The notes below the pieces were generated by a model, which saw only the letters and a list, made by a program, of their open reading frames with translations, made no database searches and was not told the DNA's origin. DNA of 64,000 nt, from the NCBI GenBank assembly GCA_963726245.1, contig CAVSBT010000015.1:64001-128000 (forward strand), in the 5' to 3' direction. Made by a program: the position numbers and the translations under genes. This stretch comes from an uncultured Chloroflexia bacterium (GTDB lineage Bacteria; Chloroflexota; Dehalococcoidia; DSTF01; JALHUB01). Positions 36,336 through 59,974 of this stretch are shown here, piece after piece. Each line of letters begins with the position of its first letter. The first letter of the stretch is position 1.

Positions 36336-36424
36336 AGCTTCAGTATAGGAACGGCCCCTGCAAATGGCAAGGAAGCCGGGCTCGGTTGACGGGCCCAGGG
36401 GCGGCCCTTATCATCGGGGCAACG

Positions 36425-37438
36425 ATGGCGAACCAACGGCAGCGCTTCTCCGGCGCTCCCGCCCGCGTGGGCGCGTCCCCCGAGGCGGCGCCTCTCCGCT
36501 TGCCGGCCAGTCCAGGCGGGCCTTTGCTGGGAGCCGCCGGTTACCTGCGGTCCCTTGTCATCTCCATGCGACCCCGCCAGTGGACGAAGAACCTCATCGT
36601 CTACATGGCGCTCATCTTCTCCGTCGGCAGCGCCTGGCACGTCCGCCAGCCGGATACGTGGCTTCCGCTGCTGGGCAAGGCGAGTCTCGCCTTTGCCCTC
36701 TTCTGCCTCGTGTCGAGCGCCGACTACCTGGTGAACGACGTCCGCGACCGCGAGCAGGACCGCCTGCATCCCACCAAGAGTCGCCGGCCCGTGGCCGCGG
36801 GCGCCTTTCCGGCACGAGCGGCGCTGGCCTGCGCTCTTGTCCTTTCGCTGGTAGGACTGGGCGGCATGTTCGCCCTCGACCTGCGGGCCGGTGGGGTCGT
36901 GGCGGGCTACATCGCGCTTATGCTGGCCTACTCGTTCCACCTGAAGCACACGGTACTGCTCGACATCATGACTATTGCCGCGGGCTTCGTGCTGCGCGCC
37001 ATGGCCGGCGGCCTTGTCATCGAGGTGCCTATTTCGCCCTGGCTCTACGTGGTCACGGCCCTCGGCGCTCTCTTCCTGGCGATCAACAAGCGTCGCGCCG
37101 AGCTGGTTCTCTTGGAGGACCAGGCCAACCAGCACCGCGCCACTCTGGAGGAGTACACGCCCGACCTGCTGAACCAGCTCGCCGCCACGGTCACGGCCTC
37201 CACCCTCATCGCCTACGGCCTCTACACCTTCACCGCCGACAACCTGCCGAAGAATCACTCGATGATGCTGACCATCCCCTTTGTCCTCTACGGCATCTTC
37301 CGCTATCTCTTCTTGGTCCACGCCAAGAACCAGGGTGGCAGCCCGGAGGAGGTGCTGCTCAAAGACTGGCCCTTGCTCCTCGACATCCTGCTCTGGGTGG
37401 TGACTTCGCTGGTGATCCTCACCGTCTTCCGCGAGTAG
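36425..37438 (+). CDS. UbiA-family decaprenyl-phosphate phosphoribosyltransferase-like protein
   Basis: MRPRQWTKN, YLVNDVRDREQDRLHPTKSRRPVAAG, KRRAEL, YGIFRY. Confidence 0.88.
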   Translation: MANQRQRFSGAPARVGASPEAAPLRLPASPGGPLLGAAGYLRSLVISMRPRQWTKNLIVYMALIFSVGSAWHVRQPDTWLPLLGKASLAFALFCLVSSADYLVNDVRDREQDRLHPTKSRRPVAAGAFPARAALACALVLSLVGLGGMFALDLRAGGVVAGYIALMLAYSFHLKHTVLLDIMTIAAGFVLRAMAGGLVIEVPISPWLYVVTALGALFLAINKRRAELVLLEDQANQHRATLEEYTPDLLNQLAATVTASTLIAYGLYTFTADNLPKNHSMMLTIPFVLYGIFRYLFLVHAKNQGGSPEEVLLKDWPLLLDILLWVVTSLVILTVFRE

Positions 37439-37440
37439 CC

Positions 37441-37980
37441 AAGCAAAGTAGGGACGGAGGAAAAGAACGAGACGACGCTCAAGGGCACCAACGAGGCTGA
37501 CGAGACATGCGATGGCGGCAAGCCACGCGGCCACCGCGAGCGCCGCTGCGCCACGAAGAACAAGAGAGAGCGGATAACCGCAGCGAGGGCGAACAAGACA
37601 CCAGTGTGCGGCAAAAGGGAGCGCGGCGGCCGCGAGAGAGAGCGCGACAAGCCGAAGGTATCGCAGCGAGAGATCGAGTGCACGATGTTCCACAACAACG
37701 ACCGGCGAGCCTCCCGCCTCAACGCAGACGAGCGCGCGACTCAATGCACATAGGGAAGATGCTCCCGCACGACGTCAACCGCCACAACAGCGAATACGTG
37801 CGTGGCGAAATCCACACACAGGGCATCGAGCCTGGGCGACAGAAGCGCGGTCTGATCGGGACGACCACCGCGAGACGCGGGCTACCCGCGCAGACGCGCG
37901 GAGACGAGGCCGCCACAACACGCGGCACATAACCGATGTGGAGCGGGCTTCAGCTCCGTCCTTACGGCTTCGCTATTAGT
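37441..37980 (+). pseudogene. 5'-truncated, T-depleted IS1595 (ISXO2-like DDE) transposase remnant
   Basis: Motifs in family order across frames: LKGTNEADETCDGGKPRG (37478), NKTPVCGKRERGGR (37592), RLNADE (37715), EYVRGEIHTQGIE (37792), KRGLIG (37843), RHNTRHITDVER (37911). Only 34 T in 480 nt (hand count). Confidence 0.75.
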
Positions 37981-38013
37981 GCCGGTCTGTCTCAATCTGT
38001 GGCAGGCAAGGGG

Positions 38014-38033
38014 AAGGCCCCTTTCGGGGCCTT
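38014..38033. terminator. Hairpin downstream of clpX
   Basis: AAGGCCCC-TTTC-GGGGCCTT (GAAA loop on the minus strand); weak U tail. Confidence 0.55.
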
Positions 38034-38063
38034 GCTTATCGAAGCGGGTTGGCGGGCGCGTCG

Positions 38064-39365
38064 TTAGGCCGATTCGTCTCTGATCTCGTCATCGCCGCCG
38101 GTCTCCACCACCTGGCCGGAGCGCGTCAGCATAATGGGCCGCGCCCGCCCCAGGATGGTGTCGGCGCTGACCACGCACTTCTTGACGTCTCCCCGCGAGG
38201 GGATCTCGTACATCACGTCCAGAAGCGTGTCCTCGAGCACGGTGCGCAGGCCGCGGGCCCCCGTCCTGTGGCGGATGGCTTCCTCGGCGCAGGACTCCAG
38301 CGCCTCCGGTGTCATGACCAGCTCCACGTTGTCGAGGGCGAAGAAGCGCTGGAACTGCTTGATCAGCGCGTTCTTGGGCTCGGTGAGGATGCGGACCAGG
38401 TCGCCCTTCTGTAGCGACTCCAGGCTCACCACCAGCGGCAGCCGCCCGACGAACTCAGGGATGAGGCCATACTGGAGGAGGTCATCATGGGTGACGTACT
38501 TCAGCAGCTCGTCGGAGAGCTCCTGGCCCGTCTTGTTGGCGAAGTCGGCGCGGAACCCCATGGACTTCCGGCTCTTGCTCAGGCGCCGGTCGACCACCTT
38601 GTCCAGCCCCTCGAAGGCGCCGCCGCAAATGAAGAGGATGTTGCAGGTGTTGATCTGAATGAAGTCCTGGTGGGGATGCTTGCGGCCCCCCTGAGGCGGC
38701 ACGTTAGCCACCGTGCCCTCGATGATCTTGAGGAGAGCCTGCTGGACGCCCTCGCCGGATACGTCTCGGGTGATGGAAGGGTTGTCGCTCTTGCGGGAGA
38801 TCTTGTCGATCTCGTCGATGTAGACGATGCCACGCTCTGAGCGCGAGATGTCGAAATCGGCAGCCTGAATGAGGTGAAGGAGGATATTCTCCACGTCCTC
38901 GCCGACATAGCCGGCCTCGGTAAGGGCCGTGGCATCGGCGATCGTGAAGGGAACGTCCAGGATGCGGGCCAGGGTACGGGCCAGTAGGGTCTTGCCGCAG
39001 CCGGTGGGCCCCAGGAGGAGGATGTTGCTCTTCTCCAGCTCGACTTCCCCACACCCGCTGCCGGCAGAGATGCGCTTGTAATGGTTGTAAACGGCGACGG
39101 AGAGGACTTTCTTCGCCTGCTCCTGGCCGATGACGTACTCGCCTAGCTGCTGGTAGATGGTTTTGGGGGGAGGTGTGCGCTCCGCGCCGGCCTTCGGCTT
39201 GCCGACGCCCGCCGCCTCCTCGTCGATGATCTCGCGGCAGAGCTCGACGCACTCATCACATATGTAGACGGCGCCGGGACCGGCAATGAGCCGCTTTACC
39301 TGGTCCTGGTTCTTGCCGCAAAAGGAGCAGTGGTAGAGGACGCGGCTACTGCGGCTGTTGGCCAT
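38064..39365 (-). CDS. clpX: ATP-dependent Clp protease ATP-binding subunit
   Basis: CSFCGK zinc domain, [31 protein letters not shown]. Confidence 0.98.
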
Positions 39366-57486: not shown

Positions 57487-59974
57487 CTATCCCGCCAGCA
57501 CGGCGACGGTCACGCCCTCGCCGCCCTCTTGCTGCGGGGCCGTCTCGACGGCGCGAACCAGCGGGTGGCGGGACAGCATGTCGCGCACCGCCTTCCGCAG
57601 CACGCCGGTGCCCCGCCCATGCACGATGCGCACCGAGCTCAGACCGGCGCGGTAGGCGTCGTCCAGGTACTTGTCGAGGGCCGGCAGCGCCTCGTCGATG
57701 GTCTGGCCTCGTATCTCGATCTCCGGATCGACGGCCGGCGCGGGCGGCATGGCGGGGATGGGCTGCGGCGCGCCCTCCTTGTGGTGCGGGCGCTGCACCC
57801 GCTCCACCTGCTCCAGGGAGACGCGGCTGCGCAGCGGGCCCAGGCGCACCTCGAACTCGCCGTGTTGGTCGGGCGCGCCGACCGCCTCGCCGTAGCGCTC
57901 CAGGCCGCGCAGCCACACAAGGTCGCCGGCCTGGACGGACTCGGGGGCGACGGTGGGCTCCGGACGGCGTGGCCGGCGGCGACGGCTCATGACTCTGGAG
58001 GCGCCGGATGGCCTCATCGGCGGCGGCGAGCTTCTCCTGAGTCGCCTCCAGCCCAGCGGTGTCGGGCGGCTTCGGCGGCCGCACCCTGGGCCGGAGGGCG
58101 GCCGCGGCCTTGCGTGCCAGCTCGGCGGCCTGCTCGGCGGCGGCGCGCTCGTGCTCGATGCGGCGGCGCGCCTCCTCCAGCAGCTCGCGGGTGGCCGACA
58201 CTTCCTGCTCGATGGCGTCGCGGGTGGACGACAGCAGCTCCTCGCGCTCCTCGTCCAACGCCTCCAGTCGCGCCTCCAGCCGCCCGCGGATCTCCTCCGC
58301 CTCGCGACGGGCGACCTCCTCAGACCGCCGCTCGAACGCCGCTTCCTGTCGCTGGCGCTGGATGTCGGCCAGGAGGCTTTCGACCTGCACCTGGTCGGGC
58401 GTCAGCGAGGCCTGGGCGGCTTCGATGACCTCCGGCGCCAGGCCCAGGCGGGCGGCGATGGCCAGGGCGTTGCTGCGGCCGGGCAGCCCGATGCTCAGGC
58501 GGTAGGTGGGGGCCAGCGTCTCCGGGTCGAACTCGACGGAGGCGTTCATGACGCCGGGCGTGGCGTGGGCGAAGACCTTCAGCTCGCCGTGGTGGGTGGT
58601 GGCAACCGTCACGCAGCCGATGGCCAGCAGGTGCTGGAGGATGGCGCGCGCCAGCGCCGAGCCCTCGTCGGGGTCGGTGCCGGCGCCCAGCTCGTCGAGC
58701 AGCACCAGGCTGCGTGGCTCGGCGTCTTTCAGGATGGCGATGATGTTCGTCATGTGGCTGCTGAAGGTGGAGAGCGACTGCTCGATGCTCTGCTCGTCGC
58801 CGATGTCGGCGTGGACGGAGGCGAAGACGGGCACCTGGCTGCTGGCGTCGGCGGGAACAGGCAGGCCGGCGAGCGCCATCAGCGCGAGCAGCCCCGTCGT
58901 CTTGAGGGCGACGGTCTTGCCGCCGGTGTTCGGCCCGGTGATGAGGAGGGCTGAGTAGCCGGTACCCACGGAGAGCGAGATGGGCACGACGTCCCTGGTG
59001 AGCAGGGGGTGACGGGCGTTGACCAGGTTAAGGGGCGCCGGCGCGGCCACCAGCCACGACTGCGACGCGTCCTCGTGGGGCAGCTCGTGGGCGCCCATGT
59101 CGTCGGCCAGGCGCGCCTTGGCCAGGGCGAGGTCGATCTCGGCGAGGCCCTCCACGTCGCCGGTGATGGCGTCGGCGGCGGCGCCGACGGCGGCGCTCAG
59201 GCGTCGCAGCACCCGTTCGACCTCGCGCTCCTCCTCTAGTTGCAGCTCGCGCCAGGTGTTCCCCAGGTCGACGATGGCCAGGGGCTCGAGGAAGATGGTG
59301 GCGCCGCTGGAGGACACGTCGTGGACGATGCCCTGCATCTGGCCCCGGAAGTCGGCCTTGACGGGGATGACATAACGGCCGTCGCGCAGCGTGACGATGG
59401 GCTCCTGGGCGACCTGCCGGCCCTGGGCCGAGTTCAGGATCTCCTGGAGCTTGGCGTTGAGGCGGTCGTGGGCGATGCGCACGTCGCGGCGGAGGGTGCC
59501 GAGGACGGGGCTGGCGGCGTCGGTGACCTCGGCGCGAGGGTTGATGCAGCGGGCGATGTCCGCCACGAGGTCGGGCGCCTCCGGCAGGTCCTCGGCCAGC
59601 TCCGCAAGCAGGGGCAGGCTCGCCTGTCCGGCGGAGCCGCCGCCTGAGAGCCGGGTGATGGTGGCGCGCATCTCCGCGGCGGCCCGCAAGGTAGAGGCGA
59701 GGTCGAGGAGCTCCGTGGGCTCCAGGATGCCGCCCAGGGCAGCCTTGTGGGCCAGGGGGCGCGCGTCGTGGGCGCCGCGCAGCGAGACGCTGGGCTTCAT
59801 GGCCCGCAGGCGCCGCGCCTCAGCCGTCAGGCGGTGGCGGCGCACGACCTCGGCGTGGTTGGTGGATGGCCGCAGGGCGAGGGCCAGCTCGCGGCCGGCC
59901 GAGAAGGAGGCGTGGCGGGCCAGCCGCGCCAGTACCTTCTCGAACTCCAGTGTGGCGAGAGTCTTCTCTTGCAT
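57487..59974 (-). CDS. mutS2: MutS2 (MutS ATPase plus Smr domain; frameshift near 57995)
   Basis: TLEFEKV, ITGPNTGGKT, DIGDEQSIEQSLSTFSSH, LDELGAGTDP, Smr IVHGRGTGVLR, GGEGVT. Confidence 0.94.

What the first reader, a model, noticed from the sequence alone, without database searches (positions are those of the whole stretch)
37441..37980. IS1595 transposase fragment with strand-specific T loss: possible DGR-like A-to-N hypermutation of a mobile element
Seen: between the ubiA stop and the clpX hairpin the plus strand has only 34 T in 480 nt (about 7%, hand count), with abrupt edges. It still encodes IS1595/ISXO2 DDE motifs in order. Inference: most departures from the remembered family consensus are repaired by restoring a T. 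Examples: acc aAc gag to TIE; tGc gAt to FV; gtg tGc ggc aAa to VFGI; cgc gAg aga gAg cgc gAc aAg ccg to RVRVRVMP; aac aAc gac to NID; ctc aAc to LI; gtc aAc cgc cac to VIRH. The small deletions (GIE-SFW-xxKRG, GT-Y-H) also fall where T-rich codons are expected, while C/G/A positions look conserved. T-to-N on this strand equals A-to-N on the antisense strand. Established: adenine-specific mutagenesis is the signature of DGR reverse transcriptases. Hypothesis: an antisense RNA of the IS was reverse-transcribed error-prone and written back, i.e. a RIP-like transposon-inactivation or capture pathway, or off-target DGR retrohoming. No RT gene is visible in this window. A basecalling artefact on modified T is the main alternative.
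Basis: partly seen in the sequence, partly recalled or inferred. Interest (0 to 1): 0.88.

Follow-up and report, generated by a model that had tools for sequence, protein, structure and literature searches.

The report
Foreign IS fragment with one-strand T loss
A 488-base piece of a foreign transposase gene sits inside a DNA hairpin between two housekeeping genes, and about half of its T's on one strand have been replaced (mostly by A) or deleted, a rare record of a single burst of base-specific copying errors unless it is an assembly artefact.

Summary
Window 37441-37920 has 34 T in 480 nt. The stretch is an internal fragment of an IS1595 transposase gene, 75-81% identical in DNA to intact copies elsewhere. 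Contigs from three other studies join 37458 directly to 37947, so it is a precise 488-nt insertion (37459-37946) into the 5' arm of a 9-bp hairpin. There is no target duplication and no IS ends. Six-nt microhomologies lie at both joints (joint chance about 7e-4).

Where four parents agree, 27 of 52 T's are changed (13 to A, 6 to C, 3 to G, 5 deleted) against 31 of 302 other sites (p = 5e-11). Four control lineages changed 1-3 of 53-55 T's. Only T>A, T deletion and C>A are unequal to their complements.

The rate and the A>C>G order resemble DGR reverse transcriptases. However, no RT gene is found in the host, in 16 of 17 family relatives or in 5 donor-family genomes. Deletions and C>A fit bypass of an unreadable template purine better. 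Other IS1595 relics are normal, so this is a single event and not a RIP-like defence. The assembly does carry indel errors, of a different kind, and no raw reads were available, so an artefact remains possible (about 15%).

The parts
36386..37438 (+). Its stop codon is at 37436-37438.
   Evidence: ORF list. I did not test the family assignment. The 3' end is 87-88% identical to G001 and G007.
37439..37458 (+). Left target flank. Its last 7 nt are the start of the 5' arm of the hairpin that the insertion disrupts; it ends in GACGGA.
   Evidence: Contigs of X2, X3 and X4 run through it and join directly to 37947 (tables 5 and 8). Fold of the reconstructed empty site.
37459..37946 (+). 488-nt insert (position +-1). 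It is an internal fragment of an IS1595-family transposase gene, about codons 140-307 of the 327 aligned, in sense orientation, T-depleted, with no IS ends and no target-site duplication.
   Evidence: Joint 37458>37947 'skips 488' in 3 runs. DNA homology. HMM matches. Codon range. Substitution spectrum.
37459..37740 (+). 5' regime of the insert, with substitutions only. 19 of 32 parental T's are changed (11 to A, 6 to C, 2 to G) and there are no indels. The transposase frame is still open (103 codons, 37442-37750).
37741..37946 (+). 3' regime of the insert. All T deletions lie here (6 by MAFFT against L046). A closer parent-like contig in run X2 shows 8 single-T gaps plus AGTT and C. T>C is as common as T>A. 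The frame is broken.
   Evidence: tables 3-4. Deletions 0/19 versus 6/20 of T changes, p 0.02.
37947..37961 (+). Right target flank: the rest of the hairpin (end of the 5' arm, 4-nt loop, 3' arm). It contains TTCAGC two nt after the joint.
   Evidence: The hairpin has a 9-bp stem; 7 of its 9 pairs span the joint; z -3.2 against shuffles.
37969..38010 (.). Short dispersed repeat (about 42 nt) next to the insert. It is not part of the insert.
   Evidence: It matches 5 places in G001 and 2 in G000, and contigs with unrelated flanks in X1, X3 and X4 (tables 7-8).
38013..38032 (.). GC-rich 8-bp hairpin just downstream of the minus-strand clpX-like gene (the 'clpX hairpin' of the finding).
   Evidence: Fold of 37935-38045.
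38064..39365 (-). Downstream convergent ORF (433 aa), ClpX-like by its sequence. I recognised this by eye and did not test it with an HMM.
   Evidence: ORF list.

Best explanation
This was a single capture event followed by no special process.

At a stable hairpin between two convergent genes, replication or repair stalled or the DNA broke. A foreign single-stranded copy of part of an IS1595 transposase gene, from an IS lineage otherwise seen only in another family of the same order, annealed to the site through 6-nt microhomologies at both ends. The plus strand of the 488-nt insert was laid down once by a low-fidelity polymerase for which template adenine, and to a lesser extent guanine, was uninformative. 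That polymerase put in A, or nothing, where T belonged.

I favour a host repair or translesion polymerase doing template-switch or gap-filling synthesis. The genome has a Y-family polymerase and a Ku-LigD pair. The template would be either purine-damaged, or copied when dTTP was scarce.

Shown: the precise insertion, the empty site, the hairpin target, the microhomologies, the foreign origin, the strand- and base-specific spectrum, and the uniqueness among homologues.

Inferred: that the plus strand is the newly made one, that it was made in a single pass, and the identity of the enzyme.

My odds: about 80% that this is a real one-off capture carrying a burst of strand-specific errors made before or during integration; about 35-40% that the enzyme is a non-RT repair polymerase.
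For: - Empty site: found in 3 runs of 3 studies, with flanks showing 2-11 differences in about 220-310 nt. The insertion is therefore recent, and slow decay in place cannot remove half the T's.
- Joints: no target duplication and no IS ends. GACGGA and TTCAGC are shared by target and parent at the two joints; the chance of both is 121/176200 breakpoint pairs.
- Target: the joint lies inside a 9-bp hairpin stem.
- Origin: DNA relatives occur in 9/36 f4 genomes, and in 0/17 f1, 0/2 f3, 0/16 f5 and 0/21 f2 genomes. Identity at non-T columns is 79-82%, the same as among the parents themselves (80-87%).
- Spectrum: T changed at 27/52 against 31/302 for non-T, and 39/68 against 72/434 relative to L046.
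- Complement test: T>A 15/68 versus A>T 1/123 (p 7e-7); T deletion 6/68 versus A deletion 2/123 (p 0.025); C>A 14/163 versus G>T 1/148 (p 9e-4). T>C and T>G are not significant.
- Match to known bypass: dAMP insertion and one-base deletion make up 92-98% of outcomes when E. coli bypasses an abasic site (PMC4167244 passages).
- Against the DGR spectrum: T>G and T>C fall below DGR expectation (p about 0.04 each).
- Host toolkit: Ku, LigD polymerase domain next to it, Y-family polymerase, ComEC, DprA.
- No RT genes.
Against: - About 35 unreadable adenines in 488 nt is a very high lesion density. Bypass of even one abasic site is under 1% efficient in E. coli.
- Chemical depurination should affect G at least as much as A (recalled, not from a call). 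Here sites opposite template A are hit about 3-4 times more often than sites opposite template G.
- No adenine-specific lesion source or dTTP shortage is shown.
- A per-site rate of 52-57% and a T>A share of 22-25% equal the DGR RT values almost exactly.
- The sharp switch from substitutions only to deletions along the insert is unexplained.
- SPDIR-type events described so far are 3 to about 100 bp, not 488 (bioRxiv 10.1101/2023.11.22.568220 passages).
- This is a single instance in a metagenome-assembled genome that carries base-level errors.
Confidence: 0.4

Rival explanations
1. The plus strand is a cDNA made by an adenine-mutagenic reverse transcriptase of the DGR type, probably phage- or plasmid-borne and now absent or unassembled. 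It copied an antisense transcript of the IS gene. Synthesis was either primed by the nicked hairpin or the cDNA was captured afterwards at microhomologies. This would be off-target DGR activity, not canonical retrohoming.
For: T changed at 52-57% per site against 51.6% for bRT-Avd. Replacements are ordered A>C>G as in bRT-Avd (22.2, 17.8, 11.6%; PMC7826257 passages). Chi-square p is 0.45 and 0.50. Other bases change only at the level of ordinary inter-copy divergence. Such an enzyme makes about 35 errors in 488 nt without stalling. cDNA is single-stranded, a natural substrate for microhomology capture. bRT-Avd mutagenises non-DGR templates too (PMC6182149 discussion passage). A hairpin near the target is a DGR requirement according to the title and abstract listing of PMC3240598 (not read further).
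Against: No RVT_1 hit in the host (82.8% complete), in 16 of 17 other family genomes or in 5 of 5 genomes with the closest IS copies. No Avd-like gene. No template copy in the genome. bRT-Avd makes only short cDNAs on non-DGR templates. T deletions run at about 9% against 0.1% indels. The C>A asymmetry is not expected at this level, since template G misincorporation is 1.6%. T>C and T>G are below expectation once background is added (p about 0.04 each). It is an insertion, not replacement of a homologous variable region, and the site is not in a protein-coding target.
Confidence: 0.25
2. Technical artefact. The T-specific differences, or the whole insertion, arise from sequencing or consensus errors. 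For example, the consensus at this locus may be built from few noisy single-strand long reads of a rare allele, or the basecaller may have been confused by modified bases.
For: The assembly has base-level errors. rpoB carries 18 private single-base indels in 3.3 kb relative to two relatives. mutS2 is split over two frames. Thr/Pro repeat units differ by indels. No public run holds more than 16% of the sampled words, so no reads of the source could be inspected. No other record carries the T-poor version.
Against: The assembly's own error mode is different. In rpoB 15 of 18 indels are insertions, 8 of them G, with T>A 2/425 and T deletions 0/425; the insert shows 15/68 and 6/68 (p 3e-12 and 6e-6). 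The insert has no private insertions, where 2.2 would be expected. The flanks agree with independent contigs without indels (table 4). The joints share only 1 nt with each other, so a graph chimera is unlikely. Microhomologies to the parent at both joints and a hairpin target are features of a biological event. Errors confined to one base on one strand over exactly the foreign segment would need modified bases on one strand of the insert only.
Confidence: 0.15
3. Gradual change in place after insertion of a normal fragment, through a strand-asymmetric mutational bias (for example transcription-associated) or selection for a T-poor transcript.
For: The site lies between two convergent genes and is probably transcribed. 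This is inference; no RNA data exist.
Against: Strains with the empty site differ by only about 1-3% in the flanks, so there has been too little time to lose about 55% of T's. The flank differences show no T-specific pattern (table 3). Non-T divergence of the insert equals normal divergence between IS copies. Rfam finds no RNA family here.
Confidence: 0.03
4. A RIP-like genome-defence pathway that hypermutates mobile elements.
For: The mutated sequence derives from a transposase gene.
Against: The two other IS1595 relics in this genome have normal T content (19-23%). Among 144 tblastn segments from about 130 homologues, this fragment is the only outlier (T 6.3%, next lowest 13.8%, mean 17.2%, SD 2.9%). 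The fragment arrived already truncated and immobile.
Confidence: 0.02

Closest known systems
Diversity-generating retroelements (mutagenic retrohoming by bRT-Avd-type reverse transcriptases)
   Same: Base-specific, strand-specific change at about half of the sites of one base, equivalent to adenines of the template strand. The replacement order is A>C>G in the newly made strand. Other bases are copied faithfully.
   Different: No RT, Avd or template repeat was found. The event is an insertion of 488 nt at an unrelated intergenic hairpin, not replacement of a homologous variable region in a gene. T deletions run at about 9%. There is a C>A asymmetry. It is a single event.
[quoted passage not shown]
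   Same: Heterologous DNA is joined at short, imperfectly placed microhomologies on both sides, without a target duplication or a recombinase site. The host has DNA-uptake genes (ComEC, DprA).
   Different: Described SPDIR events are 3 to about 100 bp; this one is 488 nt. SPDIR is not reported to carry base-specific hypermutation. Those reports come from Acinetobacter baylyi.
Translesion bypass of abasic sites (the 'A-rule') in bacteria
   Same: The two dominant outcomes are the same ones that are strand-asymmetric here: A inserted opposite the unreadable base, and a one-base deletion. C>A is also raised, as expected for lost guanines.
   Different: The implied lesion density is extreme. Adenine is affected far more than guanine. 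No lesion source is known.
Ku/LigD non-homologous end joining with capture of filler DNA, and microhomology-mediated template switching (MMBIR-type)
   Same: Foreign DNA is inserted at a break or stall site by low-fidelity polymerases. The Ku and LigD genes are present and adjacent.
   Different: I did not read primary reports of captured fragments in bacteria; my knowledge here is recalled. A base-specific error spectrum is not a known feature.
Repeat-induced point mutation (RIP) of fungi
   Same: A mobile-element sequence carrying dense changes of one base type.
   Different: RIP makes C-to-T changes on both strands of all repeated copies. Here the change is T loss on one strand of a single non-repeated fragment, and other relics are untouched.

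Membership tests
IS1595-family insertion sequence | Transposase with the IS1595/ISXO2 DDE domain | tested here: met
   As a degraded fragment only. NF033547 E 1.6e-4 (21.6 bits, cut-off 75); PF12762 E 0.009. DNA is 75-81% identical to genes whose products pass the cut-off, e.g. G036:C48 at 183.6 bits.
IS1595-family insertion sequence | Complete element with terminal inverted repeats and a target-site duplication | tested here: not met
   The insert covers only about codons 140-307 of the gene. The empty site is contiguous with no duplicated bases. It is a gene fragment, not an IS.
Diversity-generating retroelement | Reverse transcriptase gene (RVT_1 type, DGR clade) | tested here: not met
   0 hits in G000 at E<=1; 1 of 17 other family genomes; 0 of 5 donor-family genomes. 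G000 is 82.8% complete, so absence is not proven.
Diversity-generating retroelement | Accessory protein (Avd-like four-helix bundle) | tested here: not met
   TIGR02436 gives 0 hits in G000; the control rang in 1 of 14 genomes.
Diversity-generating retroelement | Template repeat / variable repeat pair differing at adenines | tested here: not met
   No second copy of the fragment in the genome.
Diversity-generating retroelement | Mutations confined to template adenines at about 50% per site, with indels rare | tested here: inconclusive
   The rate (52-57%) and the order A>C>G fit. T deletions at about 9%, the C>A asymmetry and low T>C/T>G do not.
Diversity-generating retroelement | Variable region at the 3' end of a protein-coding target gene, with an IMH and nearby hairpin | tested here: not met
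   The target is intergenic. A hairpin exists but the insert lies inside its stem. No homologous region was replaced.
Microhomology-mediated illegitimate recombination (SPDIR-like) | Microhomologies between donor and target at both joints, without target duplication | tested here: met
   6 nt at each joint, displaced 2-3 nt from it; joint chance 7e-4.
Microhomology-mediated illegitimate recombination (SPDIR-like) | Size range of described events (3 to about 100 bp) | tested here: not met
   488 nt against the range quoted.
Microhomology-mediated illegitimate recombination (SPDIR-like) | Single-stranded donor integrated during replication | not testable with these tools
   This is only inferred, from the one-strand error pattern.
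DarT-type thymidine ADP-ribosylation damage | Modification at a short T-containing motif | tested here: not met
   Lost T's show no fixed motif: after A 13/20 lost, after G 8/17, after C 2/10, with any 3' neighbour. The DarT HMM search was uninformative because no control genome rang.

The most novel reading that the evidence does not exclude
An adenine-mutagenic (DGR-type) reverse transcriptase copied a non-cognate antisense transcript of a transposase gene for nearly 500 nt. The mutagenised cDNA was then written into the chromosome at a hairpin by target priming or microhomology capture. That would be the first natural record of off-target DGR activity creating a new genomic insertion, and it would mean DGR enzymes can act as general mutagenic retro-inserters.
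Probability: 0.25. Interest if true: 0.85.

Novelty: new variant of a known kind. Interest (0 to 1): 0.6.

Why it matters
If real, this is a fossil of one copying event in which a single template base was misread about half the time. It is preserved because the product was captured in a chromosome and can be compared with close, unmutated relatives and with an empty target site.

It shows that bacteria can acquire several hundred bases of foreign DNA at a hairpin through 6-nt microhomologies. It also shows that the captured strand can carry a dense, base-specific error signature. So far that kind of signature is known only from DGR reverse transcriptases or from heavy template damage.

Either enzyme-level reading would be informative. 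One would extend the reach of DGR-type enzymes beyond their cognate targets. The other would document very long error-prone repair synthesis in nature.

The complement-asymmetry test used here (each change compared with its complementary change on the same alignment) is a simple screen that could find more such events in other genomes.

It is one instance in an imperfect metagenome assembly, so its weight depends on read-level confirmation.

Tried and rejected
- Rfam, permissive thresholds, window 37200-38200: no match.
- Genome-wide composition scans. With 300-nt windows and |AT skew| above 0.5, the top hits are Thr/Pro tandem repeats, a G-rich stretch and ordinary genes. With 200-nt windows there were 167 candidates, and my ORF/GC3 filter could not separate coding from non-coding sequence at this GC content; it did not even flag the finding. 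Dropped as uninformative. I therefore did not establish whether other captured fragments exist in this genome.
- Public runs: no listed holder is on record as RNA, and no run holds more than 16% of the sampled words. In the four runs laid, 37462-37758 had no cover.
- Exact 27-nt T-poor signature: 0 matches in genome contigs and 0 in viral contigs. The tool notes that records of the window's own genome may be left out.
- blastn-short of the 56-nt region holding the dispersed repeat found only itself in G000, although one search had found two weaker copies.
- DarT HMM: no hit, but no control genome rang either.
- UV damage: rejected, because lost T's are not restricted to dipyrimidines.
- Adenine deamination: rejected as the main cause, because T>C is not significantly above its complement A>G.
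- Uracil or modified T in the plus strand as template: rejected by reasoning, since A insertion opposite it would be correct and not mutagenic.
- Literature searches for a prior report of adenine-specific hypermutation of a captured fragment outside a DGR, and for cDNA capture or template switching in bacteria, listed none. I saw only titles and abstract openings there.
- Papers read as passages only: PMC7826257, PMC6182149, PMC4167244, PMC13646829 and bioRxiv 10.1101/2023.11.22.568220. The per-base bRT-Avd figures cite supplementary figures that I could not see (supplements are closed and I did not ask for them).
- The '3p' line counts overhanging parent columns. I did not use its deletion figures and used instead.

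Full report
**Observation**

Window 37441-37920 holds 34 T in 480 nt (7.1%), with A at 28.7%. The window means are T 16.4% and A 15.7%. No other 480-nt stretch of the window has T below 10%, and AT skew reaches +0.64.

Composition alone is not exceptional in this 67% GC genome. Scans of the whole assembly (G000: 46 contigs, 2.68 Mb, 82.8% complete, 6.3% contamination) find many windows with strong A/T skew. The most extreme are Thr/Pro-coding tandem repeats and ordinary genes. What sets this stretch apart is that it is intergenic, non-repetitive and homologous to a gene whose other copies are not skewed to this degree.

**Identity**

- Pfam PF12762 and NCBIfam NF033547 (IS1595 transposase) are the only families that match, weakly but colinearly. 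Rfam finds nothing.
- At the DNA level, window 37459-37946 is 75% identical to IS1595 transposase genes in G039, G036, G044 and G046, which belong to the same order but a different family. It is 81% identical to metagenome locus L046.
- It corresponds to about codons 140-307 of the gene. It still translates at 65-70% identity to an intact transposase, in two frames.
- With T-containing columns removed, it is 79-82% identical to the four genome copies, and those four are 80-87% identical to each other. It is therefore an ordinary member of that IS clade with something extra done to its T's.
- DNA-level relatives occur in 9 of 36 genomes of family f4 and in none of 17 (f1, the host's family), 2 (f3), 16 (f5) or 21 (f2). 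The fragment looks foreign to the host lineage.

**Anatomy of the insertion**

- Contigs from three public runs of three studies (X2, X3, X4) match both flanks with 2-11 differences over about 220-310 nt, and join 37458 directly to 37947, skipping 488 nt (tables 5 and 8). The same-genus genome G001 has an 88-nt spacer here against about 625 nt.
- The element is therefore a precise, recent 488-nt insertion (37459-37946, +-1). It has no target duplication and no IS ends.
- The reconstructed empty site folds into a 9-bp stem with a 4-nt loop (z -3.2). The joint lies in the 5' arm.
- The last six bases of the left flank (GACGGA) recur across the parent's left breakpoint. The six bases that follow the captured segment in the parents (TTCAGC) recur in the right flank two bases after the joint.
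- Sliding breakpoints along the parent gene gives such matches at both ends in 121 of 176,200 pairs.
- The endpoints were set by annealing to the target, not by a transposase.

**The mutation spectrum**

*Four-parent test.* At sites where four parents agree, our lineage changed as follows.

| Base | Changed | Of | Fraction |
|---|---|---|---|
| T | 27 (13 to A, 6 to C, 3 to G, 5 deleted) | 52 | 52% |
| A | 12 | 96 | 12% |
| C | 12 | 101 | 12% |
| G | 7 | 105 | 7% |

Fisher's test for T against non-T gives p = 4.7e-11. The same calculation on each parent against the other three gives T changes of 1/53, 3/55, 1/53 and 1/53.

*Against L046.* 39 of 68 T's are changed (15 to A, 14 to C, 4 to G, 6 deleted), against 72 of 434 other sites.

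*Complement test.* This compares each change with its complement on the same alignment, which cancels any strand-symmetric divergence.

| Change | Count | Complement | Count | p |
|---|---|---|---|---|
| T>A | 15/68 | A>T | 1/123 | 7e-7 |
| T deletion | 6/68 | A deletion | 2/123 | 0.025 |
| C>A | 14/163 | G>T | 1/148 | 9e-4 |
| T>C | 14/68 | A>G | 16/123 | not significant |
| T>G | 4/68 | A>C | 2/123 | not significant |

The four-parent set gives the same picture.

*Closer partial parents (tables 3-4).* Two short contigs in X2 and X3 differ from our sequence mainly by T's that we lack: 8 single-T gaps, plus C>T, A>T (twice) and G>T.

*Distribution along the insert.* The loss is spread over the whole insert, but its form changes. 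From 37459 to 37740 there are only substitutions (19 of 32 T's) and no indels. All T deletions lie further 3' (0/19 against 6/20 of T changes, p 0.02).

*Context.* Lost T's have no fixed sequence motif. T after A is lost more often than T after C (13/20 against 2/10).

*Flanks (table 3).* Flank differences from the empty-site strains show no T bias.

**Uniqueness**

Among 144 tblastn segments from about 130 IS1595 homologues, this fragment is the only outlier. The set includes intact genes and relics from relatives, metagenomes and this genome. Sense-strand T is 6.3% here, the next lowest is 13.8%, and the mean is 17.2% with SD 2.9%. The two other IS1595 relics of this genome have normal T. 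The T-poor signature has no exact match in the species-representative genome collection or in viral contigs.

**What made it**

"A where T, or sometimes C, belonged, or nothing" means the plus strand is most simply read as the newly synthesised strand. The polymerase that made it found template purines uninformative, adenine far more than guanine.

*The reverse-transcriptase reading.* The published bRT-Avd figures are 51.6% of template adenines misread, with A 22.2%, C 17.8% and G 11.6% inserted (PMC7826257 passages). These fit the rate and the order (chi-square p 0.45 and 0.50). Against this reading:
- No RVT_1 gene in the host, in 16 of 17 other genomes of its family or in five donor-family genomes.
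- No Avd-like gene and no template copy.
- Indels in DGR cDNA run at 0.1%, and cDNAs on foreign templates are short (PMC6182149 passages).
- The event is an insertion, not a replacement.
- T>C and T>G fall below expectation once background is added (p about 0.04 each).

*The repair-polymerase reading.* dAMP insertion and one-base deletion make up 92-98% of abasic-site bypass products in E. coli (PMC4167244 passages). Those are the classes that are asymmetric here. C>A is what lost guanines would give. The host has a Y-family polymerase, an adjacent Ku-LigD pair, ComEC and DprA. Against this reading: the implied lesion density, the under-1% efficiency of bypassing even one abasic site, and the preference for adenine over guanine.

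I favour the repair-polymerase reading slightly (35-40%) over the DGR-type reading (25%). The data do not decide between them.

**Artefact**

The assembly is not clean.
- rpoB carries 18 private single-base indels in 3.3 kb relative to two relatives. In all four relatives searched it is a single frame.
- mutS2 is split over two frames.

Those errors are mostly insertions (15 of 18, eight of them G). The private substitutions there are strand-symmetric: T>A 2/425 and T deletions 0/425. Both differ strongly from the insert (p 3e-12 and 6e-6). The insert has no private insertion, and the flanks agree with independent contigs.

I could not inspect source reads, because no indexed run holds more than 16% of the words. 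I keep the artefact at about 15%.

**Rejected readings**

- Slow change in place is excluded by the near-identity of the empty-site strains in the flanks.
- A RIP-like defence is excluded by the normal relics.

**Verdict**

Its DGR-style interpretation is partly supported at the level of the error signature, but not at the level of components or of the "write-back" idea.

The best description is a one-off, microhomology-guided capture of a foreign gene fragment at a hairpin, carrying a single burst of adenine-directed copying errors. It is a new variant of known kinds of event, and worth read-level confirmation.

Noticed in passing
G000:C37:113000-116800 (outside the window): The essential gene rpoB carries 18 private single-base indels (15 insertions, 8 of them G) relative to G001 and G007, and hops between frames. 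In four relatives it is one clean frame. This points to base-level consensus errors in the assembly.
   Followed up: yes
window 57499-59971 (G000:C15:121499-123971), minus strand: mutS2 is split. Model positions 1-615 and 633-789 (the Smr end) lie in different frames. This stretch is also the most A-poor part of the window. It could be an assembly indel or a real frameshift.
   Followed up: partly
window 37969-38010: A dispersed repeat of about 42 nt beside the insert. It matches five places in the same-genus genome G001 and two in G000 (C33:4739-4765, C16:98558-98593), and also contigs with unrelated flanks in runs X1, X3 and X4. It may be a REP- or MITE-like element.
   Followed up: no
G000:C19:33656-33877 and C19:122950-123078: Two other C-terminal relics of IS1595-family transposases, the second with frame breaks. 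Both have normal T content. No intact IS1595 copy was found in this assembly.
   Followed up: partly
G000:C30:91997-94358, C37:192739-193750, C25:106786-108395, C29:35795-36367: Long tandem repeats coding Thr/Pro-rich (TPT-type) linkers, with almost no A or no T on one strand. Repeat units differ by single-base indels.
   Followed up: no
G000:C3:23209-24869: The LigD polymerase domain and Ku lie side by side, forming a complete bacterial end-joining pair.
   Followed up: no
G000:C46:8278-8895, C25:35270-35890, C31:42822-43440: Three DprA-like genes. The one on C31 is split into two overlapping pieces.
   Followed up: no
G000:C27:120872-121338: A 470-nt stretch that is 88% G+C with 55% G and 3% T, close to the contig end. 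Its nature was not examined.
   Followed up: no
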